The notes under the pieces are model-generated. The model had not been told where the DNA came from and searched no databases. It worked only from the letters and a program-made list of their open reading frames with translations. Shown in pieces: positions 5,144 to 28,493 of a stretch of 64,000 nt of DNA (positions are counted from its first letter, which is position 1; each line of letters opens with the position of its first letter). The DNA comes from Gemmatimonadota bacterium (GTDB taxonomy: Bacteria; Gemmatimonadota; Gemmatimonadetes; Gemmatimonadales; GWC2-71-9). The translations under genes were made by a program, and so were the position numbers. Location: contig JAJCZX010000024.1 in the NCBI GenBank assembly GCA_029262195.1, positions 1,323 through 65,322 of the forward strand. The letters run 5' to 3'.

Positions 5144-5427
5144 TGGTCTCCCCCAAAAAGACAGTCAACGGCCTAATGCAGTGGTTGAGCCGAACGCTGG
5201 GAGTCGTACTACCCACGCTGGCTTTTTTCAAAGGCTTTCCGTCCATGCAGGCTCTCTGGCGTGGAGCAATCTCGGGATTCCCTGACCCAAACAAGCCGTT
5301 CCCGTGGCGGGTTCCGGTTAAGGGCTCGTGGTCGGAGTTGTTCCCGGATGCCCCAAATTTGGATGTCACCGTCACCATCGTGGTGGATGAAAATGATGAA
5401 TCACAATCAGATCAAGAAGGGTGGTAA
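5143..5427 (+). CDS. Small hypothetical protein (94 aa)
   Basis: ATG at 5143 is in frame with track ORF 5101-5427. GGAGGT at 5130-5135 lies 8 nt upstream, and there is a 1-nt overlap with the upstream stop. The N-terminal part MVSPKKTVNGLMQWLSRTLGVVLPTLAFF is moderately hydrophobic. Confidence 0.6.
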   Translation: MVSPKKTVNGLMQWLSRTLGVVLPTLAFFKGFPSMQALWRGAISGFPDPNKPFPWRVPVKGSWSELFPDAPNLDVTVTIVVDENDESQSDQEGW

Positions 5428-5430
5428 CGC

Positions 5431-5895
5431 ATGAAATCACCGGATACCGGAACCAATGTCTCGATCGCGGCGCAGTTCGAGTATAAGGATGGGCAATCGT
5501 TCACGATTCAATCACAGGACATCCAGAAACTTAGCACTGGCGGTTGCGTCAACTTTTCTCTGGCGTCGCCGATGGTGGTTGGTACTCTCGAAGATTTCGC
5601 CGAATGGCTTGCGGGCGAGTTCGGTGTTGCGAATGCGCATACTGAAATCCATGATGCCCTTGCGAACATGCCGAGTTGGCTGGCCGATCTGGTGAATGAT
5701 TTTCTCTCGCCAACACTGACGATCACCGTACTTGATGTGACCATCTGTAAAGAGAAGGGTAAGGGGAAACCTAGCCTTGCTGGTTTTTCTTTCGGCGTCA
5801 CCTGGACCTATAGCCCGCCGAAACACATCGTAGGGCCTTTGTATTTCGACGGCATTGGAGCGTTGATAGAACGCAACGCTGGCGCGTCGAGTTAG
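5431..5895 (+). CDS. Hypothetical protein (154 aa); weak resemblance to the N-terminus of the following giant protein
   Basis: This is the track ORF, starting 3 nt after the previous stop. The segments SPMVVGTLEDFAEWLAGEFGV and LTITVLDVTI resemble SPIALTDLYEWVRQLLEQIGL and VTITLEPDITV in the first 150 aa of the next ORF. Confidence 0.7.
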   Translation: MKSPDTGTNVSIAAQFEYKDGQSFTIQSQDIQKLSTGGCVNFSLASPMVVGTLEDFAEWLAGEFGVANAHTEIHDALANMPSWLADLVNDFLSPTLTITVLDVTICKEKGKGKPSLAGFSFGVTWTYSPPKHIVGPLYFDGIGALIERNAGASS

Positions 5896-5908
5896 AGCTA
5901 AACTCGAC

Positions 5909-8900
5909 ATGTCGTTGCTGGAGAATCAGGACGCGACTGCTGGGGCCGTTACCAAGGTAACCGTCTCGTTGAACGGGGAGTTGGATTTTGGCTCGTCCCC
6001 GTTCAAAATAGCTTTGGAGGCGGTAGTCGCGGGCGGTCCGTTGGAAATAGGCTTGGTGTCACAGTCGCCTATTGCATTGACCGATTTGTACGAGTGGGTG
6101 CGGCAACTGCTCGAGCAGATCGGACTGGATCTACCTGAACCTGCGGCTCCCTGGAGCATGATCCTGGATCGAAACGTCAACGCGGCCATCTGGTTGCGCC
6201 CCGGGGCTGAAACTCGGGCCGCCTACCTGCAGTTGGACCTGTCTCCTCCTTTGCCCATCGGCGGCTCCAGAGACTTCCACGGCGTGACAATCACGCTTGA
6301 GCCGGACATCACCGTCGAAAGTATTTATCTGGGTTATGACGCTGCATCGGGCAAGGGAGTTGATTTCCGTATAAAGGTGAGTTCCCCCACCACGGGAGCG
6401 ACGAAATCGGGAGCTGGACTACTGACGGCGGGCGGGGAATCACTGGTGGCCAAAGACCCCCCGACTAAGACGCAAGTCGTCAGCTATCCGTTTCCTGTGC
6501 CTTCGCAAAAATCAGCATCGAAATTCAAATTGAAATACCTGGGGCTTGGACAGCGTGTCGGGCCTGATCCGCAAGTAAACCCAAATGGCGATCCGCTCGC
6601 GACGATCTTTGATCAGCTTGAGAGCGACCTGGCGACCAACGATCCCAAGGCGATCCTCGAGCAGGTCGCGGCGAATTTTTACAAGCCTGATCGTGACTGG
6701 TTCATAGCAGCAGACATAGAATTCCGGGGGTTTGAACTCCGTATCCTGTTCAACGACCCTGCCATGTATGGCCTGGAGATCACCGCTGGAGCGGGGACGG
6801 GGCTCGAAGGTTTGTTGTTCGAGATTCTTTATCAGAAACTTGGGCCGCACCTCGGCGTTTATTATGGCGCCCTGACGCTTCCAGACGTTTTGCGGAGAAT
6901 CCCGATCGATGGTGCTATTCTAATCCTTCCGTCGTTCTCGGTTTGGATATACACCAATGGTGACTTCCGAATCAACATTGGTTGGCCGCTTGGCCCCAAT
7001 TCGATAGGTCTACAGCTCGACGTGCTGCTCGGGCGAGCCGGATTGTACTTTGCGAAACTGAGGAGTGGCGATAACCCCGGCCATTCGCCCTCGGAGTCGT
7101 CGCCGGGGTACAACCCCATTCTGGAGTTTGGCCTCGCCGTGTCCCTGTCTGCCGAGGCTTCGTTGAACGCTAGCGTGTTAAGCGCCAGCATATCGGTCGA
7201 CTTTACGGCAACGTTCCAGGGGCTTTTGGCCTGGGGAGCGGCTCCAGCCTTGAAGCCTCCGCAACGACCACCCCCCCAGGGCGGGGCGATAACGAAGACT
7301 CCCGGGCACTACTGGTTTGCGGCTACCGCGACCCTGGTGGTATCGCTAAAGGGCGAAGTCAATTTCCGTATTATCAAAGTCACCGTCGCAATCAATTTTA
7401 CGGCGTCGGTCGGAGTCGCGCTTGAGACGGGTCACGCGGGCCTTGTGCAGATCGCTGCAGAGGTAACGGTCTCCGCTTCCATAAAGATCATATTCTTCAC
7501 CATACACTTCAGCTTCCACGCATCGGTGACGCACACTTTTACCATCGGTTCGGGCCCTCCAGCCAGCACCAAAGGACCCCTCGGCATGGGATCGGCCGGT
7601 GCGTTGTACAGGGCGTTCGAGGACAAGGTATTAGAAGATGTCGCGCTACATAGAGAGTCGTTGTCGGAGGGGCAGGAATCATTCTTTGAGCTGACACCCC
7701 TCCAATCGCCACCGATTCCGGTAACGGCGTTTTTCATTCTCCAACCTGCGGTTGTTTTCGATCAGACCGGCGTTGGACAGCTTGCTGCGGTTGCTTCGCT
7801 TGTCACTGAAGCGCCGGTGGCTCGTGCTGTCGGTGTTGCAAGCCCTGACACCATGACTCAGTACGAGCAATTGATACGGAAATATGTTGAATGGTTGTAT
7901 TGCGAGTTCACACCGGCGGGCGGTGCCACGCTTGCGCGGTTGCGCGCTTTGGCTGGTGCGCTCGGTTCAGGAAAGGCATCGCCATCGACGCCGGTGTTCG
8001 GTGGTTTCGCAGGATTTCGAGAACACCTTTTTGCGTTTTTTAACGCCTACATTAGCCTCGAGATACGCTCGTCTTCGAAACACGAAGCTGATCTACCCCC
8101 CGACGTCGCCGTCCTGCCAATGTTTGATGAGCTACAGCTGAGACGTCAGAAAGCGGATGGGACCGTACAGGTCATTCGCTTCAGCGAGTACGAAAAGACA
8201 CCAGCCAACTACCCGCTGGCGATTGATCTTTACTATGACCTGTTGACCGAAACGCAAACGTGGGCTGAGATGGGTTATTCGACGGCCGAAACGATTAGCC
8301 AACCTTCCCCCACCGTCGCGTCATTCCTTTCTGAGGACTATTTCCTGATGGTGGCTCGACAGGCCGTAAATCAACTCGTTGATCTGGCGGACAAAAGCGG
8401 CGCGATTCTCGAAAAGCAGCTGTTTTCAGATTTGCGAGGTACTGATGCGGACCGCAGGAGAGAATTGATTCATGCCCATGTCATGCGGACTTCCGGTGAT
8501 AACACGTTGCTGGAACTTTTGGATGAACTAGACTACGGGTCAATCGCCGGACTCGGGTCTCGGTCATTGCTGCAAGGCGTGCAACTTCCCATACCTAAAG
8601 ACGTTCCGAAGAATCCCACGCCGGAGAACATGCCCGGAGTGCCGACCGCCGGGATGTCGGTTTTGACGGGGCAACAATGGCTAGTACGTACGGGTGCCAC
8701 TGACGTGACGGCCGCCTTGATGGCGAATTCGAACGACCCCGGACGTGCTGACTGGATCCATTTCGACGGTTCGCTCGGGACAGCCGATGCTGAATTGGCG
8801 CTTCCGGCAGCGGCGCCATCCATCCCGGCCCCGTCATGGAGCGGTCCCCAAAGTAGCCCTGCTGACGTTGATGTTCTGTACCGAGGCCCCGAGTCCGAGG

Positions 8901-11900
8901 GAATTGACGGTGATATTGAAGTTGGCGCGATAAACACGTTGACAGCTTTTCCACTCTATGTAGCGCAAACCAATCGGACGTTGTGGACGGCAGAGTCCGC
9001 GCGCACCTTGCTGCCGCTCAACGCGGATCTGGGCATGTGGCCCTCAGGTTCCGGGGCGGTTGAGGTTTCCAATGTTGCGCCCGACGAGGAAGCCAATCCG
9101 CCGCTGCTTGAGGGGGCAGCGGTATTGACGATCGCGCTTTCGATCAACCAAATCGGTACGATTCACGATACAGACGTGGGCGCGACCAGCCCGCCGCCCG
9201 ATGCCGGAACTACTCTTGGCTCTCCTCCGGTGTTTGGCCCTGATATGGCACTTCCGTTTGTGTTCTCGATCAACGGGGCCGACGAAACGACACGTGATCT
9301 TATCGAGGATGCTCTGCAAAGTGCCGACTTCAACTCAGTTCGAATATCGATCGCCTATGCTGATCCGTCCTCCAATCAGATCTGTTCGGAGGAGTTGTCA
9401 CCGGATGTGATGCTGCTCAAAACCAACCTGTCGACCTTGAATCAGGCCTACGAGGTGAGTGCGCTGTGCGGTGAACGTATGCAGGTGTTGGGGGCGTTGC
9501 AGGGAGACGATGTGGCCACTATCGATGAAGCCGAGGCATTTCTCCGCTTATTATGGGAATGCAGTGTGGTGCATGCGTCCGGATACTATCTGTATTACCG
9601 GACCAGCGACGGACATCCGCTAGCGCCAGATGTGTTTACGGATGGTAAGGCATCGATCACGATAATCGTCGAGCCGACGACCCCGTCCCAAAACCTCATT
9701 CAGGTGGCGTCATACCAGAACTCAGTATGCGTGTTGGGCAACCACTCGGCCGACACCCTCTATATGGACATGTACGAAACCGGCGGAGGAAGGGTAATGC
9801 GCTATGGCCCAACCTATCCAGCGGGCAACTTTGGGGTGGCTTTGGAATGGACACATCCCGCGGAAGCGAGTCCGCCTCCCATGGTCCCAGTCGCTGAACT
9901 GTATCACCTCATTCAATATGCCATCGAAAAAACCGGCGGATACGGAGGGTCTGTCTGGAGCCTTCCCTTAACCCCCAATGACGCCCCGACTGACGGCGGA
10001 CTGGTTGTCAGCAACTATCAGGTTATTGTGCCGGTAGACCGGTTCCTTACAGGGTCGACGAATCGATATCAGGTGAACGGCCGGCCCGTGGATATCAAGT
10101 TCAGACTCGCCGACATGTTCGGGAACATCATACTGCATGATTCACCATTCACCTTTACGCCCTACTATCACGATCCACTGGTGCCACCTGACGAATGGCC
10201 GTCTTTTGTGATGAAGTACCGGGTTATGCCGGGCGGTCTCGGGGAAGCAATGATCGCGTTGCATTGTGATTTCCAGATCAATGGCATCGAACATAATAAA
10301 GATCCCAAGAGCATGTTGGCCGCCGCCGATTCGCGGTATGCACTTATTTATGACCAACTGACGGATCCAAATGTTTCAATGACGGCGTTCACGACTCTAG
10401 TGCCCTTGGCTGATGGTCCGCTGCAAGGGTCTCATTACCTGCACCAAACATTGATTGACGTCGTCAGCACAATACGCAATCGGTTACGTGACGCGATCGA
10501 CAGCAACAAGTTCGTACCGTACCAACGGAACATTGACATCTCTGTACCTATAAGCGCGGTTGGGCAACTTCCTCAGGATATCTTCCCGATTGGCGTGACG
10601 GTTGGGATGGAACGACTGGAAGGCGTGCCGCCGCATGTCTTGGAAAACCTGCCCAGTGCTGGCTCGGTCCAGTGTTCGATTCGACCCGATCTTGACGCCT
10701 TGCGAGACGCGGTGTCCCCTGGAACTCAGGAGAGCGGCATACACATTTTCGCGAACGATTTTGAGAGCGCCTACTTTGGCTTTGATGGGCGTCAGGGAGA
10801 GTTGATAGTTGCGCAGCGGCCCGCAGCCCAGAAAAGTGCGGGCTCGCCCTCCGATGCCAGAGGTGGCGGAATGGTTCTCGGTCACGCGCCTGCTGAGGAC
10901 CACGATCTTTGGGCGGTTCGCTGGAGTGACACCGCCGGTATTTCAGTTCGGTTTGGCGGTGCCCCAATCGACGATTTCGCTTACTTCGCGGTTCGTCCAA
11001 TTAGTACGAAACTGCAGAACCACGTGTTTAACGGCACCACGCTCCACACTGGCGTCGATGTCGATCAATGGGCTCGGGAGTTCCTTGATGCGGTGGATAC
11101 TTTCCTTGCCCCGGAGTATGCCGTGGGTATGGCGGTGCTCGACTCGATGAACCAAACGGATTACCTCGAGGCGATACTGGGTTCGAAAAGACAGCTGGCC
11201 TCGATTATACCAAACGGACTTGTCAACATCTTTGAGGAGGGTGCCAGAGGCGACATCGGTGGTGCTCGGGAAGTTTTGGAGCAGTCGTTGCTAAAAGAAC
11301 TGGGTTCCGCATATTCCATATCGACGGTGGTGCAGGCGCGTTCGGAGGTCACCACCTTCCCTGCCAGTTTATCGAGCCCCAACGGCTTCCCGCCTTCCTT
11401 CTACGGAGGAATAGTGTCTTCCGATTCGCTACAGTCCGACTCGGGAGTACCACCGAAGATTTCGAAACGCTACACGCTTTCGGGCGCCCGTTTGCAGATC
11501 GAAGACGGTTATCAATGGGCAGCCTTCATGGTGGGAACTGCTGATCCCGCGTTACAAACGGAACTGGTTCTCCCGTTAAACTATGCGATCAGTTACTTGC
11601 AGCACGATTTCCTGCCCGATGAAGAGTACCAGGGGTTTGTGCCTTCGTCCTGGCTGAAATTTGTTCTTACGAGGGAGTCGCTGGATTTACCGGTCACCGC
11701 CTCAAACCCTGCCGAGATCCCAATTCCATTGCGCGCGGACCCTCAAGCCCCCGCGTGCGTTAAGCAAACTGCTCAAGGCGTTCCAATAACTCCGAAAAAG
11801 ACGCCGTCCCCACCGGGGCCTGAAATCACTGCAGCCTTGGACTGGGAGTATCAGGCTGATATTAGGGTGAAGTGGGATCTCCACGACGAGCTCTTGATGA

Positions 11901-18051: not shown

Positions 18052-20561
18052 AGATTACTCTGCTGACGACCCGTCGTTTCGACCCTACCGCTATCTGGTT
18101 GGCCGAGCAATTCCGCATTGCGGGAATGGACCTAACTCCATCTAGGGTTCTCACGCCGAAAACAGATCTGGCCCTTTTCTGGAGTTATGATCGTACGCGA
18201 GCACGACGACAGATCCGGAATTTTTGCGAGGCCCGCGGGATTCCAATTCTAAATTCGCGTACGCTCGGCGTGTTGTCGGTTGCCAGGCGGTTGCAACGTG
18301 CCGGGATTCCGGTAGTGCCAACCATGGAGGTTGCGGATAGGTCGGCAGCCCGCGAGGTGTTGGGGGGTTGTCCCCCTCCGGTCGAATTGACTACCGCCTT
18401 CGGAGGTCGAGTTCGCGAGGTCGTGGACGCGGCGGACCTCGAAAATAAATGGGGTCCCCGACACGCCATTGTTCGCGCCGTTGACAAAGATATGGTGCGG
18501 CTCGCCGTTGTGGGCGGCGAAGTGCTAGGAGAAGCGACTCCTGCATGGACTCAGCTTGCACGCGCAGTCAGCGATGCACTAAATGTTGATTTTTGTGTGG
18601 TCCGTTTGTGCACTTTTCACGGGCAACCAACGGTTGTTTCCGTCAGCCACAGGCGTCCGGGTATTGGGTCGTTCCCCGGAGCTGGCGAAGCCATGATCCG
18701 CCTTGCAGAAAAGCAAAAAGCGAGTGAGAAGCCAGCTTGTGTTCGGGGCTTTCGAAAACCGATGGTGTCAATTGTTACCGGTATTCCGGAAGACGAGACA
18801 GTAGAGGCCATTCGTAGGGCATGTGTGAATCAGGGTCTTGAGCCTAGAGTCACGACCGAGGTTCAAGCCGACTCCGACGCGGCGTTCTTTTGGGGGCTTC
18901 ATTGGCGCCATCACCGGGACGTATGGCGTCACGCGGAAACCATCGGAATACCGACATTGGGTGGACCGTGGCGCTCGATTTCGGACCAACTGGGCGCACT
19001 ACGCCGTGCACGCCTGTTCGTCCCTGATTTTCGACCGGCCAGAGGCGCAGACAGTGCCGCTCGATGGGCTCGCAGAATTGGATATCCGGTTATGGTTGGC
19101 GAGGACGGTGACCCTGATCGACACAGCTGCCGCCTTGTGTTCCAGGAAAGCGAGCTGCGCATGGCGTGCGATCAGATTGAACCTCCGGTCCTGTTGCAGG
19201 GTCTCCGTTGGTCCTCCTCAACCTTGCTTCGGGCCTGGGTGGTAGGGGACTCCGTGTTAGCGGTGAGATCGCAACCACTCGCCGATCTTAGTCAGGGCTA
19301 CAGGGGCGTCGGATTGTGGAGCAGGGAGGAGGCGTCTCAAACAATAAAGGTTGCCGCCATCGCTGCCAGAAACGCTCTCGGTACAGGACCCTGTATTGTC
19401 GAGTTGCTCGATGAACCCGATGGGGTGACGGTGCTGCGTGTTCTTCATCGACGTGTTGCGTTGGAGGAGTTGCCGGACGAGGCGTCGGAAAAAATTCCAG
19501 TGATCATGGCATCTGAGATTGCGAACTTGTTGAAGGAACCGGATCGACCGTTGGCTTTTGCCCCTCCGTTGAAGGTGGTAATGGCCCGCCCTTACCGGCG
19601 ACAAAACCGAATGCGGATATGGTGTATTTCTGCTGTGTATCATGAACTGGCCCGCCGCGGACATGAGGTCGTCCATCTTTTTGGACGTTACGACGCTCAA
19701 AAAATCGACCAGGCTGATCTCGTATTACAGGATCCTTTGGCTACAATGGGCTGGCGCCGTAAGCCCAATCCGCTCAACCGGCGGCTCTTGAGCGAAACCA
19801 AGGTGCCGTGTCATCTTCTTCGCCATCACAGCGGTCGGGGCAGGGGCAAACTAGGGTCTCTTAGTTTGGCGCGCCGATTGGATCTGCCCCACCCGCGGGT
19901 TTACCGACCGCGTTCTGTACAGCAAGGCCATCTTCCGGTCATCATAAAACCGCTGCATGGCTCGCTGGGGCGGGGCATCTTTCGAGTGGATGATCTGGAT
20001 CAACTTCGTCGCCTGAATCCTCGGGGGAAGCTAGTCCACGAATTTATCGACTCGGACACCGGATATGCCGTGAGTGCTCGCGTCGTAACCGTACGAGACG
20101 AGGTTGTAGCCGCTGGGATCTTTTACAGTCGCGGCGCTGTTATTTCTAATCTTTCCCGCGGCGGTCGCGCGGTAGCTCTAACCGGACCCGGCGCCTCCGC
20201 GCGCCTGGGTACCGAGGCAGCTATGTTGCTGCGGCGGATCGGGATTGACCCCACGGCACCACGTGTGGTGCCCGCCAAATTGGTTGCCATGGCATCGAAG
20301 GTTGGTGCTCATCTTGCCACTCGTGGGGTTCAGATGGTGGGGCAGGACTATGTGGTAAACCGTGACGGACAGTGGTTCTTCCTCGAAGCGAACAGGTCTT
20401 TTGGGATCGCGTTGTTCAACGTTACCGATGGCGACGGATATCCAAGCACCAGGAAAGGATACCGTCTGGCCGGAACTGTCCTGGCGCAGGGATTCGAGAA
20501 AACTGTCGGGCGGGCTCCGGCAAAAACGACACGCCACTTCCGGCGGAGAGGAGGGACATGA
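18048..20561 (+). CDS. Protein of three tandem ATP-grasp-like modules (837 aa); the C-terminal module is RimK-like
   Basis: The start is ATG at 18048 (MKITLLTTRRF), which overlaps the upstream stop; the track ORF begins 48 nt earlier in the same frame. Module 3 reads LPVIIKPLHGSLGRGIFRVDD...LVHEFID...YAVSARVVTVRDEVVAAGIFYSRGAVISNLSRGGRAVAL...GQDYVVNRDGQWFFLEANRSFG. This matches the RimK pattern (DIRxxVVGDxVVAAxxRxxxxGxFRSNLHRGGxA). Modules 1 and 2 repeat the same layout (pre-ATP-grasp Rossmann-like start MKITLL / MVSIVTG / LKVVMAR, IPxL, ...VVGGEVLG / WVVGDSVLAV) but lack clear phosphate-binding motifs. Confidence 0.7.
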   Translation: MKITLLTTRRFDPTAIWLAEQFRIAGMDLTPSRVLTPKTDLALFWSYDRTRARRQIRNFCEARGIPILNSRTLGVLSVARRLQRAGIPVVPTMEVADRSAAREVLGGCPPPVELTTAFGGRVREVVDAADLENKWGPRHAIVRAVDKDMVRLAVVGGEVLGEATPAWTQLARAVSDALNVDFCVVRLCTFHGQPTVVSVSHRRPGIGSFPGAGEAMIRLAEKQKASEKPACVRGFRKPMVSIVTGIPEDETVEAIRRACVNQGLEPRVTTEVQADSDAAFFWGLHWRHHRDVWRHAETIGIPTLGGPWRSISDQLGALRRARLFVPDFRPARGADSAARWARRIGYPVMVGEDGDPDRHSCRLVFQESELRMACDQIEPPVLLQGLRWSSSTLLRAWVVGDSVLAVRSQPLADLSQGYRGVGLWSREEASQTIKVAAIAARNALGTGPCIVELLDEPDGVTVLRVLHRRVALEELPDEASEKIPVIMASEIANLLKEPDRPLAFAPPLKVVMARPYRRQNRMRIWCISAVYHELARRGHEVVHLFGRYDAQKIDQADLVLQDPLATMGWRRKPNPLNRRLLSETKVPCHLLRHHSGRGRGKLGSLSLARRLDLPHPRVYRPRSVQQGHLPVIIKPLHGSLGRGIFRVDDLDQLRRLNPRGKLVHEFIDSDTGYAVSARVVTVRDEVVAAGIFYSRGAVISNLSRGGRAVALTGPGASARLGTEAAMLLRRIGIDPTAPRVVPAKLVAMASKVGAHLATRGVQMVGQDYVVNRDGQWFFLEANRSFGIALFNVTDGDGYPSTRKGYRLAGTVLAQGFEKTVGRAPAKTTRHFRRRGGT

Positions 20562-22972
20562 AATCAGGGACTGGTGACATTTGGTCGCTTCGTATACCGG
20601 CGGATGAGTTAACCGACTCAGAGGATTTGAGAACGTGTGCGGAGATAACCGCTCCGGCCCTTTTGCTCTTGCTGGCGACCAGGCACGGCGGATCACTTTC
20701 CTTGCGTCGCGAGGCGAACGATGTAGTTCTGGAGTCTACGATACGTCTGTCCGAAGAACATCAGGCGTGCGTGGGGGGGACTGTTGCGTCGATAGTGAGC
20801 GCTGTTTTTAAGGACGTGTGTGCCGGCGGGCTTCCGCCATCGTTGCTTCGTCACCCCGAATTGGTCGCAAAAGACGGCAAGCGATTCGTTATCTCCATTG
20901 ATCGGGACGGCGGCGGGCCAGTGCTGGCGAGGGCTCGAAGGACTCTATTGCCAGCGGTAAACGTCGACGGAGTTAGAAGCCGGGTGTCGGCTCAACAGAC
21001 TGCAACAGTGCTTTTTCTCCACGCCGAAACTGCACTTCGCGAACTGGTAGACAGCTCCATATTCGAAGTCCTTCGTGCAGCCGTGCTCGGAGAATTGTCG
21101 CTCCCGGTCGATGAAGTGGGCGGTGGAGTGGTGTCTGCGCCGGAGGGTGGTGAGTGGGAAGGATATTGTCCAGAGGTGCCGTACCCGGAACAGCCCACCG
21201 TTCCTCCGGAAGAGGGAGAACCCGAACCGGAACCACAGGCCGAACCTGAAGCGGAAGCAGAACCAGAGGCAGAACCAGAACCCGAGCCCGAAGGCGAAAC
21301 TGAGCCGTGTGTCGCCCATCTCCTGGCGGACACCGACCGGGACGGGGCGATCGATTCGACGGATGAACTCGGCAAGGGCAATTGGACCTGGGGACCTCGG
21401 GGCCGGGGTGCCATCGTCTACGTCAACTGCGATGACGATATTCCACAGCGGAGGCCCGATCAGTTCGACATGGCAATCAACGGTCCGGCGGATCCAGCAG
21501 ACCTGGCACCACTGCAGGTGACCGGATGGCCCGACATGCCCGCAGGATGGCGTGCCGAGATTGCCCTGAGCAATATGAATTTCATTCGGATCTTTGATCG
21601 CCGGGCGGTGGGTGCCGCGCCGCTTGTCGGAGTTGGCATCCCGAACGCCGCAGCTCCGCTTGATATCTCGGCTGATCGCGTTCTGGGAGTGGAGGGAGTG
21701 AACTTCGCTAGCGATCCCAATACTCCACCGGAGACGGATATCATACTTCGTGTGTACGACGCCGTCGGCGATGTTCGTTGTTCGGATCGAATTCGGTTCC
21801 GAGTGGCTCCGTGGATCGCGCCGTGGAACGGCCGTCCGGCCGAACAGGTGTACATGGTAGACGCCCCGGCAAAACCGGGCACCCCTATCACGGCCGCCGC
21901 GCCGGTAATTGCAGCGGTTCGGGCCGCCATTGGCGCGCCTCTGTTAACAGTCATTCCACCAAACTATAAACGGCAACCCGCCGGAGATCCCGAAAGATTC
22001 CCTCAAGACTGGTTCCAATTCGGGTATACTCATGCTCCTTATGCGGCCCGCCTCCCGGTAGTCGCCGAATCTCGAGGTACGGTATCCAACCTGGTTGGAG
22101 GCACTCCCGGATTCCGGCGGACCTATGCTCAATGGTTTCTTCTGGGGAGGGACTTCGGGTGGGATTTGCCCGCTCGCGCGCCAGGCGGGGTTTCCTCTGG
22201 AGAGACATTCGGTAATCTGGAGGTGTCCCCTCCCGTAACCGTTGCCAGGAAGGAATACCCATTCGGGCGAATCGTCCACGGCAACAACATCAGTGCTGGG
22301 CTCAAGGCTCACCTCAATGCCCAGGTGGTGCAGGCACCGATTGAGATCAATACGTCCTGGTTGCGGGTTGGGCATGTGGACGAGGTGGTCGTTTTCATTC
22401 CTGTGAACAATGGTTTCCGAATGTTGATCGCCAGCACCCGCGCCGCTCTTGGAATTCTGAACCGGTTGAACGCAGCCGGAAATGGCGGTGCTACACTGTG
22501 CACGAACAGAATTGATGGGAATCGACGTCGACTTCAACGAACCGTTGCTCAAATGCTTGGAGCTCCGGGCTTTGTGCCACTTCAACAAGGATTTCAACGA
22601 TCCATTGACGCCATTCGCGCCGTTCTGGTGAGAGAACTGGGGCTATTGCCCAACCAAATTATTGAGGTTCCCATGTTGTTTCTACCCGTAGGGCGAACGG
22701 CAGCAGCATACACCGGGAATATGGTCAACCTTCAGGTTGTGGTAGCAGGAAACAATCGGCACCTCCTCATTCCAGAGCCCTTTGGCCCGCTGGTTGGCGG
22801 GGTTGATCAGTTCAAAGCGGATCTCCAGGGGAACCTTGCCAACCTCGGCGTGAATGAGACCTGGCTCGACACGTGGTACTCATATCACGTGCGGGAAGGT
22901 GAAATCCATTGTGGCACAAACGTTCGCCGCACTCCCTTAACGACCAGAGAATGGTGGCGGATGGTGCCATGA
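20558..22972 (+). CDS. Protein-arginine deiminase (animal-type PAD: PAD middle + catalytic domains) fused to a novel N-terminal domain and a Glu-Pro linker (804 aa)
   Basis: The start is ATG at 20558 (GGAGAGGAGGG upstream, ATGA overlap). The catalytic region reads [25 protein letters not shown] ... [26 protein letters not shown] ... [29 protein letters not shown]. As I recall it, human PAD4 reads [25 protein letters not shown] ... [26 protein letters not shown] ... [27 protein letters not shown]. The catalytic Cys (HCGTN) and the His/Asp pair (GHVDE) are present. The middle domain reads [37 protein letters not shown] and [21 protein letters not shown], which match PAD_M-type strings. Confidence 0.9.
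   Translation: [804 protein letters not shown]
21209..21307 (+). repeat. Degenerate GAR-CCN hexanucleotide tract encoding a (Glu-Pro/Ala)n linker in the PAD protein
   Basis: The DNA reads gaagagggagaacccgaaccggaaccacaggccgaacctgaagcggaagcagaaccagaggcagaaccagaacccgagcccgaaggcgaaactgagccg. It translates to [33 protein letters not shown]. Confidence 0.9.
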
Positions 22973-23628
22973 TAACTAATCAGAATTCTGTCGAACAGCT
23001 GATTCAGGCAGCCCTGGAAGCACCACGGAACGCGAGAACGCCATTGCGCGAAAAAGTGCTTGCTATCGGCCGCAGCGCCCTGCCCAAACTGAAGGTCGCC
23101 CTCAATCATGAAGATGCCCGGGTGCGGGTAATCGCGAGGGCGTGGGTCGGCTGGTTAAAAACACCTGAAGACTATGCTGCTATCGACCGCAGCTTCGATG
23201 TTCCGTCCGATTCCTGGGTTGCAAACGTTTCGAACAAACCGCCCAGCCGGGAGTCGGTGGCTTCCGGCCTGATGTGGCCTCCTACCGAAGTCTCAGGACT
23301 GATTGGGGAGATCCTAATGAACCGTGGAGACCGGCTTGAGAGATACCAACTTGAGGGATGCATAGCCGCACTGGGGCAACTCCATCAGGAAACGCCCTCC
23401 GAAGTAGTTGAAGATATTTTCCTCTCGTTGTCAGACCAACCGACGTCAAACCCCGTGCGGCAGCTACTGTTGCACGAGTTGGCCACTAACGCGCCCCCAA
23501 ATCGCGAGCGCCTTCGGATTCTCGCGGGTCGCGCCATCCCGCCCCGACAGGCACTGGCGATCAGCCTAATGCTCGAAGCGATTCCGGATGCATACGACAA
23601 TCCTTTTCCCGATTCAGGGGGGCGATGA
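22969..23628 (+). CDS. HEAT-like repeat protein (219 aa)
   Basis: The start is ATG at 22969 (ATGA overlap with the PAD stop), in frame with track ORF 22909-23628. LAIGRSALPKLKVALNHEDARVRVIARAWVGWL fits the PBS-lyase/HEAT-like repeat pattern (ALPxLxxALxDxDxxVRxxAAxALG), and a second weaker repeat lies near the C-terminus. Confidence 0.5.
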   Translation: MITNQNSVEQLIQAALEAPRNARTPLREKVLAIGRSALPKLKVALNHEDARVRVIARAWVGWLKTPEDYAAIDRSFDVPSDSWVANVSNKPPSRESVASGLMWPPTEVSGLIGEILMNRGDRLERYQLEGCIAALGQLHQETPSEVVEDIFLSLSDQPTSNPVRQLLLHELATNAPPNRERLRILAGRAIPPRQALAISLMLEAIPDAYDNPFPDSGGR

Positions 23629-25628
23629 TGCGGAAGCCTGGTGACGTCCCCGGAGACGGCTGGACCTTGTGTGTTCCAATCCCGGGCCTAATACCAGAGC
23701 CCGATCTGGGGCTGCTCGCGGAGATTGCCGCGCCCGCCTTACTGCTCTTGCTCACGACCGCCGACGAAGCAACGATTTCGCTACACTCCGACCAACGCGG
23801 AGTTTGTATTTCCCTCCCAGGTTTTCTCGACAGAGACCATGCGCGTTGTGTTGAACAAACGTTGCTGGCTATGATCGGAACCCTCATGAAAGGCTTGGCC
23901 GACGAGGGAGTCCCGCAAGCGCTATTGCGTTGTTCTGAGTTGGTTTCCTCTGGCGACCGGGGCTCCGTGAGTGTGCCCACCCATCGGGCTGGAGCATTGG
24001 TGCTGCGTGCCGGCAGGATGACACCGGTTGCCACTTGCGACGGAAAAGACCCGGCGCGTGTCGTGCCGGTGCAACAGGCGGCAACCGTTCTTTTTCTTTA
24101 TGCGGAATCGACCCTTCGCAAAGCCGTTACAACCCAGGAATTTGAAGTCCTTCGAGCCGCTCTTCTGGGCGAGCTCCCACTGCCCATCGATATTCTAGCC
24201 CCCCCCCAAAGGGTTCCCCAAAAAATCTTCAAGCAGGACGACGGTGGTTTTGACTACCCCGAGTATGAAAAGCACCCCGAGCCTGAATTGGATCTTGAAC
24301 CGGAGCCGGAGCCGGAGCCGGAGGCAGAACCTGAACCCGAACCGGAGGCTGAGGAAAAGTGCTGCGACCATGCCCTGCTGCCCCCCCTGGCCTACAGCCT
24401 GCCCACCTTTGCGGCTCGCGATTATGATGATATTGACGCGAAACTCGATAAGCTGAAAGAGGCGGGATTCTGCGTTCTCAGCCTTACGCCGACCTATCGA
24501 GTCACCACGAGGCTCATGAACTTTGTTTATGACAACAAGCGCCTTCGGGGGGTAGTACAGATTGATGATCAGGTGACACCGTCTAAACAGGTGCTCACGA
24601 ACGTTGTCCGAAAGGCAATTCGCCGCGGCTTCCATGTTCGGCTTGAGCCGCATGTCGATGCAGATATCGTACTTGCCGGAAATCAGGAGTATTACTGGCG
24701 GGCCCAATTGATGATCGATCCGCAACCCGCAGGACCCTATTTTTCGCTTGTGGTCCAAAGGTCACTTGAGATTTTTGAGGCGGTTAAAGATGAGCTACTC
24801 GGAGGTGTACCAGACTGTCACCCGTGCTTTTGGCTGACTATCGGTTCTGAGTTGGAAATGTCCACCGTTGCCTTGCCTGATAGCTGGCTCGCGGCGTTGA
24901 CCCAGGCTCGGCGCGAAAGAACTCGGATGGGTCTAGACGGCAGGTTGGCGTTGATCCACAAGGTGAACCACGACTTCAACGCCGCCCAAACGCTTCCCGG
25001 TGGTCAAACGCGCACCCGCATGGATTACTGGATTGACTTTGCCAACGGTCACAATCGTGAGATCAATGCTACGGCACCACTGCTTACGAGTGCAGCCCAG
25101 CTGCCGAAAATCGGACGGTATCTAGGTCAACTCGATCACATTGGGATTAGCTTCTATCCCGAACTGACCGGACCCGAACGACCGCCGCCCGAACGCATTC
25201 CAGGTGAGCAATGGCGTACCGATCCTACTCCCGCCCGAGTTTCTCGTATCGCCAGCCTTATGGCCCGGCGCTTCGACGGCATGCTCCATCGGCCTTTCCA
25301 GGGCTTGGGTCGGGTCCTCGAACTTTCGGAATGCGGCATTGGAAGTCCGAATCCTTCGATTCCCTGGGAGGCCTCTAATCCACGTTCGATGGACACCGCG
25401 GAAGGCCGTAACGTCAGGCTGCATTATATCCGCGCCCTCTTGGAATACTTGCGCAACAACAAACAGCGTTTTACTTCACCCAATGGTTGTCTTGAGTATT
25501 CACCGGTGACCTTCTGGACCGTAATGCAATTTGATTGGCTGGGCGTTTCTGCCGGCGGCAGGAGATTCCGCCACCCTGATGTTATTGATGAGGTTCGCCG
25601 GTACAATCGTGAGACATTTGACGATTAA
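23625..25628 (+). CDS. Two-part protein (667 aa): N-terminal domain paralogous to the PAD protein's N-domain, a Glu-Pro linker, and a C-terminal (beta/alpha)8 glycoside-hydrolase-like domain
   Basis: There is an ATGA overlap with the upstream stop. The N-domain strings [38 protein letters not shown] and [17 protein letters not shown] parallel [38 protein letters not shown] and [17 protein letters not shown] in the PAD protein. In the C-domain, the strand-end pattern [10 protein letters not shown] / [10 protein letters not shown] / [11 protein letters not shown] / HIGISFYPE / [10 protein letters not shown] resembles clan GH-A TIM barrels with two catalytic Glu. This is a tentative call. Confidence 0.7.
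   Translation: [667 protein letters not shown]
24276..24356 (+). repeat. GAR-CCN hexanucleotide tract encoding a (Glu-Pro)n linker in the hydrolase-like protein
   Basis: The DNA reads cccgagcctgaattggatcttgaaccggagccggagccggagccggaggcagaacctgaacccgaaccggaggctgaggaa. It translates to [27 protein letters not shown]. Confidence 0.9.
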
Positions 25629-25667
25629 CGTAAACGGCTCCCACCTCCCTCGCCTTGTCGGTTTGCG

Positions 25668-27047
25668 ATGAAAAAAAAACGTAAACACAAAGGGTCGCGA
25701 CGCCTTGTCGGGGGAGTGGTGTCCTACGAAAGGTACACAGCGACCCTGGGACAGGTTCGGCTACACTACACACTGAATGATCGATACAAGTTCACCTGCG
25801 TTTATCGGATCCCTGGTTTTGATCCTGAGACGACCCCGGGCTGGGAGACTTTCGCATTCCATCTTGGATTGGCGCACTTTCCTGCCGTGTTCGCTGGATT
25901 TGCGCCTGCCTCCGTCGTGGTTAGAGCCGGTTTCCTCACCGCACCCCAATTGCGACAATGGACTACCTGGTATGAAGAAGGGTTAGCTGAGTTTTGTTTT
26001 AGAAACCACCTCCCATTCGAGGTGGTTTTAACCAGCGAAGGCAATTGCACCCACATCCCTTCGACGCAATCGTTGTCCGAAAGAGCTTTGGTTTTTCATG
26101 GGGGCGGAAAGGACTCCAGTGTCTCTGGGGCGTTCTTACGCGACCTGGGTTTTCCTCATACGTGGGTCCTCCTCGGTGGTTCACGGACCCAACGTTTTGC
26201 GACACGATCCGAGTTGCGTGGCGCACCAGCCGATCGCTGGATTGTGCGCCGCAACAAGAGCGCTCGGGTACGACGCCTGCGAGTGTTTCGGGGTCATCTA
26301 CCGTTGAACATGGAGCTTGCATTTCTCGGTGCGTTCCTCGCTGAGGTGCAGGGTTCCCGCTATGTCGTTGCATCCAACGAACGGAGTGCCAACGCCCCTA
26401 ACCTGGTGGTGGATGGACGCTCCATTAATCATCAATACAGCAAGAGTTTCGCCTTCGAGATGTCGTTCGATGCTTACAGTCGGGATTGGCTGAATCCGGA
26501 TACGCGGTATTTTAGTCTGCTGCGACCCCTGTTTGAGGTACAGATCTCCCGCCTGTTTGCCAGCATGTCCGAACTACACTACGGTTTCACGAGTTGCAAC
26601 AGAGGGGTGCGTCGAGGGCGCTGGTGTTGCCGTTGTGCCAAGTGCGCTTTTGTTTTTCTGGCTCTTTACCCGTGGATGGAAACAAAGCGTTTGACCTCCA
26701 TCTTTGGCCGGAACCTACTTGATCGGCCTCGATTGGTGGGCCTATACAGACGACTCACCGGAGTTCAGGGTTCCAAGCCATTTGAATGTGTCGGCACCGT
26801 TGAGGAAACCGCCGCCGCCATGTTGCTTGCGGCGCGCAACTCGGCTCCGCCTTTTGTTGTCCGCCATTTTATTTCCAATGAGCGGCAGATGCTCTCTTGC
26901 TCGATGCCCGAGGTGCAACAGCTGTACGATTCCTTTGACGACCAACACCTGCTGCCAGCCAAGTGGGAGGAGGGATTGCGAAAGTGGGTATCAAAACGTC
27001 TCTCTGGGGAAAGCGCTTCTCCTAAGCCTTACTTGTTCAGCGGATAG
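25668..27047 (+). CDS. PP-loop (adenine nucleotide alpha-hydrolase superfamily) ATP-pyrophosphatase-like protein with a C-terminal Cys cluster (459 aa); last gene of the operon
   Basis: LVFHGGGKDSSVSG matches the SGGxDS PP-loop motif. A later cluster reads SCNRGVRRGRWCCRCAKCAFVFLALYPW (CxxCxxC). The ORF starts 39 nt after the previous stop. The N-terminus MKKKRKHKG is encoded by an A9 run, so the exact start is uncertain. Confidence 0.65.
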   Translation: MKKKRKHKGSRRLVGGVVSYERYTATLGQVRLHYTLNDRYKFTCVYRIPGFDPETTPGWETFAFHLGLAHFPAVFAGFAPASVVVRAGFLTAPQLRQWTTWYEEGLAEFCFRNHLPFEVVLTSEGNCTHIPSTQSLSERALVFHGGGKDSSVSGAFLRDLGFPHTWVLLGGSRTQRFATRSELRGAPADRWIVRRNKSARVRRLRVFRGHLPLNMELAFLGAFLAEVQGSRYVVASNERSANAPNLVVDGRSINHQYSKSFAFEMSFDAYSRDWLNPDTRYFSLLRPLFEVQISRLFASMSELHYGFTSCNRGVRRGRWCCRCAKCAFVFLALYPWMETKRLTSIFGRNLLDRPRLVGLYRRLTGVQGSKPFECVGTVEETAAAMLLAARNSAPPFVVRHFISNERQMLSCSMPEVQQLYDSFDDQHLLPAKWEEGLRKWVSKRLSGESASPKPYLFSG

Positions 27048-28391: not shown

Positions 28392-28493
28392 CCTTGATGT
28401 TCGTATTGTCCGTCCGTGAAATGGAAAACGTGGAATCGCAGATCATACCATCCTCCATGAACCTGGTCTACCTACCACAAAAGTGGGCTGATG

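What the first reader, a model, noticed from the sequence alone, without database searches (positions are those of the whole stretch)
20558..22972. Animal-type protein-arginine deiminase with near-colinear catalytic domain, in an operon that could reveal its native bacterial role
The C-terminal ~300 aa track human PAD4 (recalled from memory) block by block. The matches are FGNLEVSPPVTV.(K/R)KEYP.GRI, VQAP......WL.VGHVDE, GE(I/V)HCGTNVRR and a C-terminal WW.MVP. The catalytic Cys and the His/Asp pair are conserved. The PAD middle-domain strings (NWTWGP.G.GAI..VNCD; FRVAPWI) are also present. The PAD N-terminal cupredoxin-like domain is replaced by an unrelated ~190-aa domain plus a Glu-Pro linker. 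This is not the Porphyromonas PPAD or an agmatine/arginine deiminase type. Eukaryote-like PADs are known to be sporadic in bacteria and have been discussed as the source of the animal enzymes. However, I know of no assigned bacterial substrate or pathway context. Here the gene is translationally coupled (ATGA on both sides) to ATP-grasp ligases and a HEAT-like protein.
Basis: partly seen in the sequence, partly recalled or inferred. Interest (0 to 1): 0.85.

Follow-up and report, generated by a model that had tools for sequence, protein, structure and literature searches.

The report
Bacterial arginine deiminase with HEAT partner
The gene is a real, apparently active bacterial relative of the human enzymes that turn protein arginine into citrulline. 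Such bacterial enzymes are already known; what is new is an orphan front domain, a conserved helical-repeat partner gene just downstream, and unusual neighbours that add and epimerise glutamate.

Summary
Window 20558..22972 (+) is an intact 804-aa ORF. Its residues 254-804 align end to end with human PAD1-4 (Pfam PAD 3e-78, PAD_M 1e-12). The catalytic Asp/His/Asp/Cys and calcium sites 3-5 are conserved, and ATGA overlaps join it to both neighbours. "Animal-type" is true only at family level. The protein falls among non-cyanobacterial two-domain PADs, 100% bootstrap away from the animal/Nostocales clade, and lacks PAD_N and the Ca2 site. Bacterial PADs are widespread (at least 581 loci in species-representative genomes). 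One already has a known substrate, the citrulassin lasso peptides. The operon context is not conserved: none of the neighbouring genes recurs beside 84 other PAD loci. One exception is new. The 219-aa "HEAT-like" gene is a divergent member of a HEAT-repeat family found directly after PAD in 16 of 17 genomes of this PAD clade. In relatives the partner often carries a signal peptide that the PAD lacks. The 190-aa N-domain is an orphan, duplicated (41% identity, same Glu-Pro linker) on an unassigned protein two genes downstream. The flanking genes resemble TTLL polyglutamylases, RimK-type glutamate ligases and the MurL terminal-glutamate epimerase. Upstream lies a widespread giant-protein/glycosyltransferase cassette of unknown function. 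The substrate is unresolved.

The parts
20558..22972 (+). PAD gene (804 aa), whole ORF
   Evidence: Identical gene call on Logan contig SRR15505516_2538.
20558..21115 (+). Orphan N-terminal domain (aa 1-186)
   Evidence: No Pfam or PDB hit. No homologue in the 5.8-billion-protein search or in any fetched locus. The only paralogue is in ORF X. The AF2 model is unusable (pLDDT 42.8).
21116..21313 (+). Glu-Pro/Ala-rich linker (aa 187-252)
   Evidence: Sequence read directly. Spurious Trypan_PARP low-complexity hit.
21320..21712 (+). PAD_M middle domain; Ca3-5 ligands N290, D292, D294, D301, D304, D312, D315, E379
   Evidence: PF08527 at 1.2e-12. Ligand columns conserved.
21779..22969 (+). PAD catalytic domain. 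D484 (22007-22009), H606 (22373-22375), D608 (22379-22381), C785 (22910-22912). Unusual substitutions F481 (PAD4 W347), W485 (E351), Q487 (E353).
   Evidence: PF03068 at 3.2e-78. Residue mapping.
22969..23628 (+). HEAT-repeat partner (219 aa), 4-nt overlap with the PAD stop codon
   Evidence: Iterative profile search finds it at E 5e-05 before it enters the model. A profile built without it scores it 18.4 bits, E 7e-4, against a best of 7.0 bits in 2000 shuffles. Family members match HEAT_2 in 7 of 17 cases and alphaRep/HEAT structures in PDB.
23625..25628 (+). ORF X (666/667 aa): second copy of the N-domain (23652-24191), an EP linker, then an unassigned ~420-aa C-terminal domain
   Evidence: BLASTP 41% identity over 182 aa, E 4e-25. 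The C-terminal domain has no Pfam, PDB or plasmid hit.
18048..20561 (+). 837-aa ATP-grasp protein. The third module is RimK-family with an ExN motif; the two upstream modules look degenerate.
   Evidence: PF08443 RimK at 2e-07. TIGR00768 rimK_fam at 3e-11. ATGA overlaps at both ends.
16876..18051 (+). TTL-family ATP-grasp ligase (391 aa)
   Evidence: PF03133 TTL at 1.5e-14. Best PDB matches are the tubulin polyglutamylases TTLL7 (1.5e-9) and TTLL6.
25668..27047 (+). MurL-like ATP-dependent peptidyl-glutamate epimerase homologue; last gene on this strand
   Evidence: NF041275 MurL at 5.6e-67, full length but 226 bits against a 700-bit cutoff. MurL_N and MurL_epimerase_C are on record for this gene.
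1532..16638 (+). Upstream same-strand cassette: g1 (1532-5143), two small ORFs (5143-5427, 5431-5895), g2 (5909-13042), double GT2 (13042-15693), a lipoprotein-like 166-aa ORF (15686-16186) and a 145-aa ORF (16201-16638). A 237-bp gap separates it from the TTL gene.
   Evidence: The g1/small/small/g2 core is conserved at 33-38% identity in 8 other loci. No Pfam, NCBIfam or PADLOC hits for g1 or g2.

Best explanation
The gene encodes a catalytically competent, calcium-binding protein-arginine deiminase of the bacterial two-domain (PAD_M + PAD_C) type. It is inherited as a two-gene module with a HEAT-repeat protein encoded directly downstream, and that protein most likely binds and controls or steers the enzyme. 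In this (probably acidobacterial) genome the module has gained an orphan N-terminal domain on a flexible Glu-Pro tether. A copy of that domain sits on a second, unassigned enzyme (X), so both enzymes are probably docked to one common partner. The module lies in a translationally coupled block with a TTLL-like ligase, a RimK-type glutamate ligase and a MurL-like terminal-glutamate epimerase. My committed reading is that this block remodels the charge and termini of a protein target: it adds glutamates, epimerises the terminal one to D-Glu, and converts Arg to citrulline. The acidic giant proteins of the upstream cassette are the leading candidate substrates. What is shown: family membership, intact catalytic and Ca3-5 residues, gene coupling, duplication of the N-domain, and conservation of the PAD-partner pair. 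What is inferred: enzyme activity, docking by the N-domain, the role of the partner, the concerted action of the block, and the identity of the substrate.
For: PAD identity and residues. ATGA coupling runs from TTL through ATP-grasp, PAD and HEAT to X. The N-domain plus EP linker is duplicated on X at 41% identity, E 4e-25. The partner family lies directly after PAD in 16 of 17 genomes of the clade holding this PAD and in 0 of 20 on the animal/cyanobacterial side. HEAT repeats are protein-binding scaffolds. Three neighbours all point to glutamate chemistry on peptide termini: best hits to TTLL7/6 polyglutamylases, the rimK_fam alpha-L-glutamate ligase model, and MurL, which natively pairs with an L-Glu ligase and epimerises a terminal L-Glu using ATP (PMC5808125, PMC8788868). 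The ligases and the epimerase are strongly basic (pI 10.0-10.4), while g1, g2 and the small core proteins are acidic (pI 4.7). Neither PAD nor its partner here has a signal peptide.
Against: The block is a singleton. All its proteins are one-member clusters, and no related PAD locus or giant-protein cassette shares these neighbours, so co-occurrence cannot support a functional link. A 237-bp gap separates the block from the giant cassette, and co-transcription is not shown. Calcium sites 3-5 are conserved, yet bacterial cytoplasm is very low in free calcium (general knowledge), which sits awkwardly with a cytoplasmic role. In relatives the partner is exported while PAD has no signal peptide, which favours an inhibitor/immunity role over an adaptor role. 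The window's partner is the most divergent family member (12-19% identity; E about 7e-4 without itself). W347F and E353Q are rare substitutions beside the active site.
Confidence: 0.35

Rival explanations
1. Effector-immunity pair. In this PAD clade the deiminase is a toxin or effector domain used against other cells. It is attached to varied N-terminal delivery or targeting modules, and the downstream HEAT-repeat protein is its cognate immunity protein or inhibitor. In the window, the N-domain shared by PAD and X would be a delivery or loading domain, possibly for the giant-protein cassette.
For: The PAD core always sits at the extreme C-terminus behind highly variable N-terminal regions: Big_2, CarboxypepD_reg, PG_binding_1 with OmpA, M15 and S8 peptidases, a lipase, and giants of 2800 aa. 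A small, fast-evolving partner gene follows, overlapping the stop codon by 4 nt. In about 12 lineages the partner has a Sec or lipoprotein signal while the PAD ORF has no room for one (L015, L016, L017, L024, L044). That is the topology of periplasm-acting effectors with periplasmic immunity proteins. HEAT-repeat immunity proteins (Imm-HEAT) have precedent (PMC3482391). P0001's PAD and partner sit next to a 3486-aa TcA-like ABC toxin. Conserved calcium sites fit an enzyme meant to act outside the producer's cytoplasm. Two proteins that share an N-domain but carry different C-terminal enzymes resemble polymorphic effectors. The g1-g2 cassette is sporadic and lies near integrases, TA genes, Rhs and Fic.
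Against: No secretion-system or known trafficking domain was found near or in any of these proteins. PAD is not in the polymorphic-toxin catalogue I read. In the window the gene after X is a 459-aa MurL-like enzyme, not an immunity-like protein. The tightly coupled ATP-dependent ligases look biosynthetic. Here both PAD and partner are cytoplasmic. No toxicity data exist.
Confidence: 0.3
2. Distal substrate. As with the Streptomyces PADs that citrullinate citrulassin lasso peptides, this PAD acts on a peptide or protein encoded elsewhere (a RiPP or a cellular protein). On this view its neighbours say nothing about its substrate.
For: Harris et al. 2020 (bioRxiv 10.1101/2020.07.16.207027) showed that the PAD is not in the biosynthetic gene cluster and that bacterial PAD contexts are highly diverse. 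My own survey found no shared neighbour apart from the partner.
Against: Four-base overlaps on both sides, and an N-domain shared with a gene two positions downstream, argue for a stable functional unit rather than chance adjacency.
Confidence: 0.15
3. Non-ribosomal glycopeptide or polymer pathway. The ATP-grasp ligases build a short peptide (containing Glu and Arg) on a sugar or polymer carboxylate made by the GT2 enzymes. [quoted passage not shown] PAD then converts an arginine of that peptide to citrulline.
For: MurL's only known substrate is a nucleotide-sugar peptide (PMC5808125). Glycosyltransferases and sugar-modifying genes are constant companions of the g1-g2 cassette. ATP-grasp enzymes make such amide bonds in many pathways (PMC4431377).
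Against: PAD_M + PAD_C enzymes are known to act only on peptidyl-arginine in proteins and ribosomal peptides. The best matches of the ligases are protein-modifying enzymes (TTLL, RimK). No Mur-type ligase, flippase or exporter lies in the block.
Confidence: 0.1

Closest known systems
Bacterial two-domain PADs (PF03068), e.g. the Streptomyces albulus/glaucescens PAD that forms citrulline in citrulassin lasso peptides (Harris et al. 2020)
   Same: Same Pfam family, same PAD_M + PAD_C core without PAD_N, the same conserved catalytic Asp/His/Asp/Cys, and many of the same calcium ligands. Both sit on the non-cyanobacterial side of the tree.
   Different: Only about 32% identical to Streptomyces plasmid-borne PADs. 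It carries an orphan 186-aa N-domain and an EP linker. It is embedded in a coupled block with glutamate ligases and an epimerase. The HEAT partner gene was not described in that work.
Human PAD1-4 (e.g. PDB 5hp5, 1wd8)
   Same: Colinear from PAD_M to the last residue (234 bits). The catalytic tetrad, Ca3-5 ligands, R374 equivalent and C-terminal WW.MVP are conserved.
   Different: No PAD_N cupredoxin domain. The Ca2 switch site is lost (E351W, D369E, N373G) and Ca1 is weakened (E353Q). W347 is F. Identity is 34.7%.
Cyanobacterial three-domain PADs (Nostocales; Cummings et al. 2022, PMC8826395), the proposed source of the animal enzymes
   Same: Same family; bacterial.
   Different: Those proteins have a degenerate PAD_N, keep E351 and are at least 45% identical to PAD4. 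None of the 20 sampled loci on that side has the HEAT partner. The window's PAD lies across a 100%-bootstrap split from them.
Porphyromonas gingivalis PPAD / agmatine deiminase (PF04371)
   Same: Same guanidino-modifying superfamily and the same chemistry.
   Different: A different family: no PF04371 hit, no PAD_M, calcium-independent.
Toxin-immunity pairs with HEAT-repeat immunity proteins (Imm-HEAT; Zhang et al. 2012)
   Same: An enzyme domain at the C-terminus of variable proteins, a small HEAT-repeat gene directly downstream, and an exported partner beside an enzyme with no signal peptide in many relatives.
   Different: PAD has not been listed as a toxin domain. No trafficking domain or secretion system was identified. 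Neither toxicity nor inhibition has been tested.
MurD2/MurL and RimK/TTLL glutamylation systems
   Same: The logic of an L-glutamate ligase paired with an ATP-dependent terminal L-Glu to D-Glu epimerase. The ligases are most similar to enzymes that glutamylate proteins.
   Different: The MurL-like protein scores well below the equivalog cutoff and has no MurD2 beside it. The substrates are unknown. A PAD has never been reported alongside these enzymes.

Membership tests
Protein-arginine deiminase, PF03068 (PAD/PADI) | Catalytic-domain HMM match above the gathering score over the full profile | tested here: met
   263.9 bits against a cutoff of 25; profile 3-394 of 395.
Protein-arginine deiminase, PF03068 (PAD/PADI) | Catalytic Cys645 with Asp350, His471 and Asp473 (PAD4 numbering) | tested here: met
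   C785, D484, H606 and D608 in a 203-sequence alignment and in the PDB alignment.
Protein-arginine deiminase, PF03068 (PAD/PADI) | PAD_M middle domain (PF08527) with Ca3-Ca5 ligands | tested here: met
   48.2 bits against a cutoff of 24.8. N290, D292, D294, D301, D304, D312, D315, E379 and D532 are all conserved.
Protein-arginine deiminase, PF03068 (PAD/PADI) | Ca1/Ca2 'calcium switch' ligands at the active site | tested here: not met
   Ca2: E351W, D369E, N373G. Ca1: E353Q, with Q349 and E411 kept. Most non-cyanobacterial PADs also lack E351.
Protein-arginine deiminase, PF03068 (PAD/PADI) | Peptidyl-arginine deiminase activity | not testable with these tools
   Needs an enzyme assay.
Three-domain animal/cyanobacterial PADI clade | PAD_N cupredoxin-like domain | tested here: not met
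   No PF08526 hit. The N-terminus is an orphan domain.
Three-domain animal/cyanobacterial PADI clade | Phylogenetic placement with animal and Nostocales sequences | tested here: not met
   NJ tree of 121 taxa. The split that puts the window's PAD with 78-87 other bacterial and archaeal sequences, away from PAD1/PAD4 and Nostocales, has 100/100 bootstrap support. This is distance-based only; no ML tree was made.
PPAD / agmatine deiminase (PF04371) or arginine deiminase | HMM match to that family | tested here: not met
   Only PAD and PAD_M were reported at E <= 0.01.
PAD-associated HEAT-repeat partner family (defined here, alignment A4) | Profile match, position directly after PAD, and start overlapping the PAD stop codon | tested here: met
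   E 5e-05 at iteration 1. E 7e-4 with a profile built without it, against a shuffle maximum of 7.0 bits. ATGA overlap. It is a weak, divergent member at 12-19% identity.
Toxin-immunity (polymorphic toxin-like) system | Recognisable trafficking or secretion domain, or a linked secretion apparatus | tested here: not met
   None in the Pfam, NCBIfam or PADLOC scans of the window's genes.
Toxin-immunity (polymorphic toxin-like) system | Toxicity of the enzyme and its neutralisation by the downstream protein | not testable with these tools
   Needs expression and competition experiments.
[quoted passage not shown] | Equivalog-level score and an adjacent MurD2 | tested here: not met
   226 bits against a cutoff of 700. 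No Mur ligase lies in the block. It is a homologue, not the peptidoglycan enzyme.
TTL/TTLL ATP-grasp family (neighbour gene) | PF03133 match above the gathering score | tested here: met
   54.3 bits against a cutoff of 20.1, but only aa 162-266 are matched. Best PDB hits are TTLL7/TTLL6.

The most novel reading that the evidence does not exclude
The non-cyanobacterial two-domain PADs may be a family of calcium-gated protein-citrullinating effectors (toxins), each neutralised by a cognate HEAT-repeat immunity protein encoded directly downstream. On this reading, citrullination began as a weapon in microbial conflict before a derived cyanobacterial branch gave rise to the animal enzymes. The window would then show one such pair recruited, through a private docking domain, into a larger protein-modifying or delivery locus.
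Probability: 0.3. Interest if true: 0.85.

Novelty: new variant of a known kind. Interest (0 to 1): 0.55.

Why it matters
PADs matter in human disease (rheumatoid arthritis, NETosis, cancer), and animals are thought to have acquired them from bacteria. Outside one lasso-peptide case, what bacterial PADs do is unknown. This locus does not answer that through its operon, which is a one-off. Following it up did show that the PAD clade containing it is almost always followed by a HEAT-repeat partner gene. That partner is often exported while the enzyme has no signal peptide. The result is a concrete, testable handle on bacterial PAD biology: does the partner inhibit, activate or target the enzyme? 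It also raises the possibility that citrullination is used as an inter-cellular weapon. Separately, the locus pairs PAD with TTLL-like, RimK-like and MurL-like enzymes. If these act on one target, it would be a rare bacterial example of combined glutamylation, D-Glu capping and citrullination.

Tried and rejected
- **Full-length homologue search.** It returned only one hit, probably because words from the EP linker swamped the candidate list. I replaced it with an exhaustive search using the core alone.
- **N-domain.** No homologue in 5.8 billion proteins, in Pfam or PDB, or by profile search in 95 loci and the window. The AF2 model from a 2-sequence alignment reached pLDDT 42.8, too poor for a fold search.
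- **First genome-contig scan.** A single-protein query found nothing. An alignment query then worked.
- **Context conservation.** tblastn of every operon protein against the ±10 kb around 84 PAD loci found nothing. BLASTP against 5 related giant-protein cassettes matched only g1, g2, the two small ORFs and, weakly, one GT. The called genes of three further cassettes show no PAD, ligase or MurL-like gene.
- **ORF X C-terminal domain.** No Pfam, PDB or plasmid tblastn hit. My by-eye guess of a GH-A-like TIM barrel is unverified and is not used in the argument.
- **Defence systems.** No PADLOC hits.
- **Promoter/terminator scan of 12.5-28.5 kb.** No more sites than chance, so it does not define transcription units.
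- **Apparent PAD-partner fusion in L008.** This was an artefact of a long six-frame segment. The partner is in another frame with its own ATG.
- **Homology between the A4 partner family and the Myxococcota HEAT-rich downstream ORFs.** hhalign gave probability 29%, E 6e-4, so this is inconclusive.
- **Recurrent ORF upstream of PAD in relatives.** No PDB hit.
- **Source organism name.** Cluster look-ups returned no names. Taxonomy is inferred only from three ADOP-family permeases.
Full report
**Observation**

Window 20558..22972 (+) is an intact 804-aa ORF. It has an ATG start behind GGAGG, and ATGA overlaps join it to the upstream ORF (ends 20561) and the downstream ORF (starts 22969).

Pfam assigns aa 408-800 to PF03068 PAD (3.2e-78, nearly the full profile) and aa 255-385 to PF08527 PAD_M (1.2e-12). 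There is no PAD_N hit and no hit to another guanidino-modifying family. phmmer against PDB aligns aa 254-804 colinearly, to the last residue, with human PAD1 (3e-68), PAD4, PAD2 and PAD3.

**Residues**

I rebuilt PAD4 116-663 and the PAD1 core from the printed alignment and checked the row lengths against the coordinates. I then aligned 203 PAD cores.

- The catalytic residues D350/H471/D473/C645 correspond to D484/H606/D608/C785.
- All Ca3-Ca5 ligands of PAD_M are conserved.
- Ca1 keeps Q349 and E411 but has E353Q.
- Ca2 is lost (E351W, D369E, N373G).
- W347, which is W in 199 of 200 relatives, is F here.
- R374 aligns with R521.

E351 is kept only in the animal and Nostocales sequences. The nearest relative, P0002, shares the W at that position.

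**How common, and where on the tree**

An exhaustive phmmer search of 1.84 billion cluster representatives found 2090 PAD relatives at E <= 1e-3 and 403 at E <= 1e-30. None was more than 44% identical. The 80 best loci come from Cyanobacteria, Myxococcota, Planctomycetota, Acidobacteriota, Proteobacteria, Actinobacteria and two Methanophagales MAGs. RefSeq/GenBank annotation already names such plasmid genes "protein-arginine deiminase family protein".

The window's protein is 34.7% identical to PAD4, like other bacterial PADs (33-37% for its nearest relatives). Nostocales sequences are at least 45% identical to PAD4.

In a neighbour-joining tree (121 taxa, 527 columns, 100 bootstraps) the window's PAD is sister to P0002 (96%). 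It lies in a weakly supported 48-member group. A split with 100% support separates it, together with 78-87 other sequences, from PAD1/PAD4 and Nostocales.

This matches the "two-domain" bacterial type of Cummings et al. (PMC8826395). "Animal-type" is therefore correct only at family level.

**What is already known**

[quoted passage not shown] Their text contains neither "operon" nor "genomic context".

Harris et al. [quoted passage not shown] They also found that the PAD is not encoded in the gene cluster and that bacterial PAD neighbourhoods are "highly diverse".

**N-terminal region**

Residues 1-186 have no Pfam or PDB match. They have no homologue in a 5.8-billion-protein search and none among the top 150 PAD relatives or 95 fetched loci.

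The only relative is in the same operon. ORF X (23625..25628) starts with a copy that is 41% identical (E 4e-25). That copy is also followed by an EPEPEPEAEPEP-type linker and then by a different, unassigned ~420-aa domain. AF2 on the two-sequence alignment was unusable (pLDDT 42.8).

In relatives, the PAD core sits behind many different N-terminal modules. Examples are Big_2, CarboxypepD_reg, PG_binding_1 with OmpA, LCAT-like lipase, S8 and M15 peptidases, Ig-like arrays, and giants of 2800 aa. Replacement of PAD_N is therefore the rule in bacteria. This particular module is private to this locus.

**The block around PAD**

Five genes, TTL-like (16876..18051), ATP-grasp (18048..20561), PAD, the HEAT-like gene (22969..23628) and X, are joined by 4-nt overlaps. 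A MurL-like gene (25668..27047) follows after 39 bp. The next gene is on the other strand.

- The TTL-like protein matches PF03133 (1.5e-14). Its best solved relatives are the tubulin polyglutamylases TTLL7 and TTLL6.
- The 837-aa protein has a C-terminal RimK-family module (TIGR00768, 3e-11).
- The last gene is a full-length MurL homologue (5.6e-67), far below the equivalog cutoff.

MurL is an ATP-dependent, one-way epimerase of the terminal L-Glu that MurD2 adds to a peptide (PMC5808125, PMC8788868). Three neighbours therefore point to adding and epimerising glutamate on peptide termini. These enzymes are strongly basic (pI 10.0-10.4).

**Upstream cassette**

The window comes from a 137.7-kb Logan contig (SRR15505516). 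Three ADOP-family duplicated permeases suggest Acidobacteriota, by inference only.

On the same strand, upstream, lie g1 (1203 aa), two small ORFs, g2 (2377 aa), a double GT2, and two further small ORFs, one of them lipoprotein-like.

g2 belongs to a large family of proteins about 2300-2400 aa long and conserved over their full length. I found 197 hits across many phyla, including Xanthomonas hortorum, Erwinia, Klebsiella and Burkholderia.

In eight other loci the order g1, ~95 aa, ~160 aa, g2, large dual glycosyltransferase recurs. It is usually followed by a highly conserved 256-aa GT2-like protein and methyltransferases. The downstream genes vary: S8/PatG-like proteases, a thaumatin-domain protein, or sugar-modification genes. 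The cassette is often near integrases, toxin-antitoxin genes, Rhs or Fic. None of the eight carries a PAD, a TTL-like or ATP-grasp ligase, X or a MurL-like gene.

g1 and g2 have no Pfam, NCBIfam or PADLOC hits. An AF2 model of g2 aa 1-1150 (pLDDT 71) has no credible structural match. Both proteins are acidic (pI 4.7). A 237-bp gap separates this cassette from the PAD block, so co-transcription is possible but not shown.

**Is the context conserved among PADs?**

It is not. tblastn with all operon proteins against the ±10 kb around 84 other PAD loci gave no neighbour matches. The operon therefore cannot be read as the native context of bacterial PADs.

**The conserved neighbour**

Clustering the neighbours of the 80 genomic PAD loci showed recurrent small ORFs directly downstream of PAD.

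I ran an iterative profile search seeded with three of these ORFs plus the 214-aa gene after P0001's PAD. The database was 12,256 six-frame ORF segments.

- The window's 219-aa ORF was recovered at E 5e-05 before it was included in the model.
- The search converged on 25 hits, all directly after a PAD gene.
- A profile built without the window's sequence scores it 18.4 bits (E 7e-4). The best of 2000 shuffles scores 7.0 bits.
- Several of the weaker hits are also ORFs that lie just after PAD.

The start codon overlaps the PAD stop by 4 nt in the window and in at least nine other lineages. Seven of 17 members match Pfam HEAT_2 (best 5e-08). The family profile matches alphaRep and HEAT-repeat structures.

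On the tree, 16 of 17 genomic loci in the window's 48-member group have this partner. None of the 20 on the animal/cyanobacterial side has it, and none of a further 8. Twelve Myxococcota loci have a HEAT-rich ORF whose homology to the partner family is inconclusive.

In about 12 lineages the partner starts with a Sec or lipoprotein signal. The cognate PAD ORF in several of them has no room for a signal peptide (L015, L016, L017, L024, L044). In the window, P0001, Actinoplanes and others, neither protein has one.

I found no description of this partner in the papers I read.

**Interpretation**

Firmly supported:
- an apparently active two-domain PAD;
- a private N-terminal docking-type domain shared with enzyme X;
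- a conserved PAD-HEAT two-gene module;
- a unique, tightly coupled block of glutamate-handling ligases and an epimerase.

My committed reading (confidence about 0.35) is that the block modifies a protein target jointly, by glutamylation, D-Glu capping and citrullination. All three make the target more acidic or more protease-resistant. On this reading PAD is tethered by its N-domain and controlled or steered by the HEAT partner, and the acidic giant proteins are the leading candidate substrates.

The main rival (about 0.30) is that this PAD clade is an effector-immunity system. Its support comes from the C-terminal enzyme behind variable N-termini, the fast-evolving coupled partner, the exported partner beside a PAD with no signal peptide, and the precedent of Imm-HEAT proteins (PMC3482391). 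P0001's position beside a TcA-like toxin and calcium sites that suit action outside the producer's cytoplasm point the same way. Against it, no trafficking domain or secretion system was found, and the window's neighbours look biosynthetic.

Lesser rivals are a distal (for example RiPP) substrate, as in Streptomyces, and a glycopeptide pathway.

**Verdict**

The family assignment is right but the kind is already known. The claim of closeness to animal enzymes and the claim of "no known bacterial substrate" do not hold. The operon is a singleton and cannot reveal a general role.

The value added is threefold: the conserved HEAT-repeat partner with its signal-peptide asymmetry, the N-domain shared with a second enzyme, and the unusual glutamate-ligase/epimerase company. 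All three are directly testable.

Noticed in passing
window 1532-15693 (g1 1532-5143; 5143-5427; 5431-5895; g2 5909-13042; GT 13042-15693): A conserved cassette of unknown function: a ~1200-aa and a ~2400-aa protein with two small ORFs between them, followed by large glycosyltransferases. It occurs in many phyla, including Xanthomonas hortorum, Erwinia, Klebsiella, Burkholderia and Acidobacteria (197 g2 homologues). It has no Pfam, NCBIfam or PADLOC hits and no structural match. This may be more novel than the PAD itself.
   Followed up: partly
window 25668-27047: A full-length MurL homologue (5.6e-67, below the equivalog cutoff) with no MurD2 beside it. It sits next to TTLL-like and RimK-like ligases, which suggests a terminal-glutamate epimerase working outside peptidoglycan synthesis.
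   Followed up: partly
L002-L005 (P0001 locus), e.g. L002:10001-21959: A 652-aa PAD (35% identical) with its 214-aa HEAT-type partner lies directly upstream of a 3486-aa TcA-like ABC-toxin protein (PA14, ABC_toxin_N, Neuraminidase, TcA_TcB_BD). An S8 peptidase lies upstream in one variant.
   Followed up: partly
L006:8834-9613, L011:9217-9912, L016:3167-3934, L056:768-1532, L015 (three copies), L014, L064: A second recurrent PAD neighbour occurs in 7 loci. It is a ~120-aa unit, often duplicated to ~255 aa, with a conserved F-G-x-x-F-D-x-D-P-x-Y-P-W motif, usually just upstream of PAD. It has no PDB hit and is absent from the window.
   Followed up: partly
L031 and L035 (Methanophagales archaeon MAGs): Full-length PAD cores (32% identical, E 3e-68 and 3e-67) occur in two archaeal ANME-1-type MAGs. 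Cummings et al. dismissed their single archaeal hit as misattribution, so these deserve a contamination check.
   Followed up: no
window 15686-16186: A 166-aa ORF begins MVRNKMTSVVGLLGMVGFMIAAWSC, a lipoprotein-like signal. At least one product of the region is therefore likely exported.
   Followed up: no
window 32699-35374, 35967-38639, 58125-60821 (-): Three ADOP-family duplicated permeases (TIGR03434; two score above the cutoff). A PadR gene sits before the first according to the contig's gene calls. This is typical of Acidobacteriota and is the only taxonomic clue I obtained.
   Followed up: partly
window 27450-30656 (-), 45115-46251 (+): A metallo-beta-lactamase-fold protein, a penicillin amidase (5.8e-128) and a serine beta-lactamase-family protein lie close to RND (AcrB-type) and MacB-type efflux genes.
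   Followed up: no
window 16876-27047 versus 1532-13042: There is a charge asymmetry. The TTL-like, ATP-grasp and MurL-like proteins have pI 10.0-10.4, while g1, g2 and the small core ORFs have pI 4.7-4.9, with only 3.0-3.8% Arg in the giants.
   Followed up: partly
L092 (Mycetohabitans rhizoxinica plasmid pBRH02, 1228-15968): Distant g2 homologues occur on plasmids. Here three giant hypothetical proteins stand in a row (1178, 1114 and 2614 aa; the last is annotated as LysM domain-containing) on a conjugative plasmid of a fungal endosymbiont.
   Followed up: no
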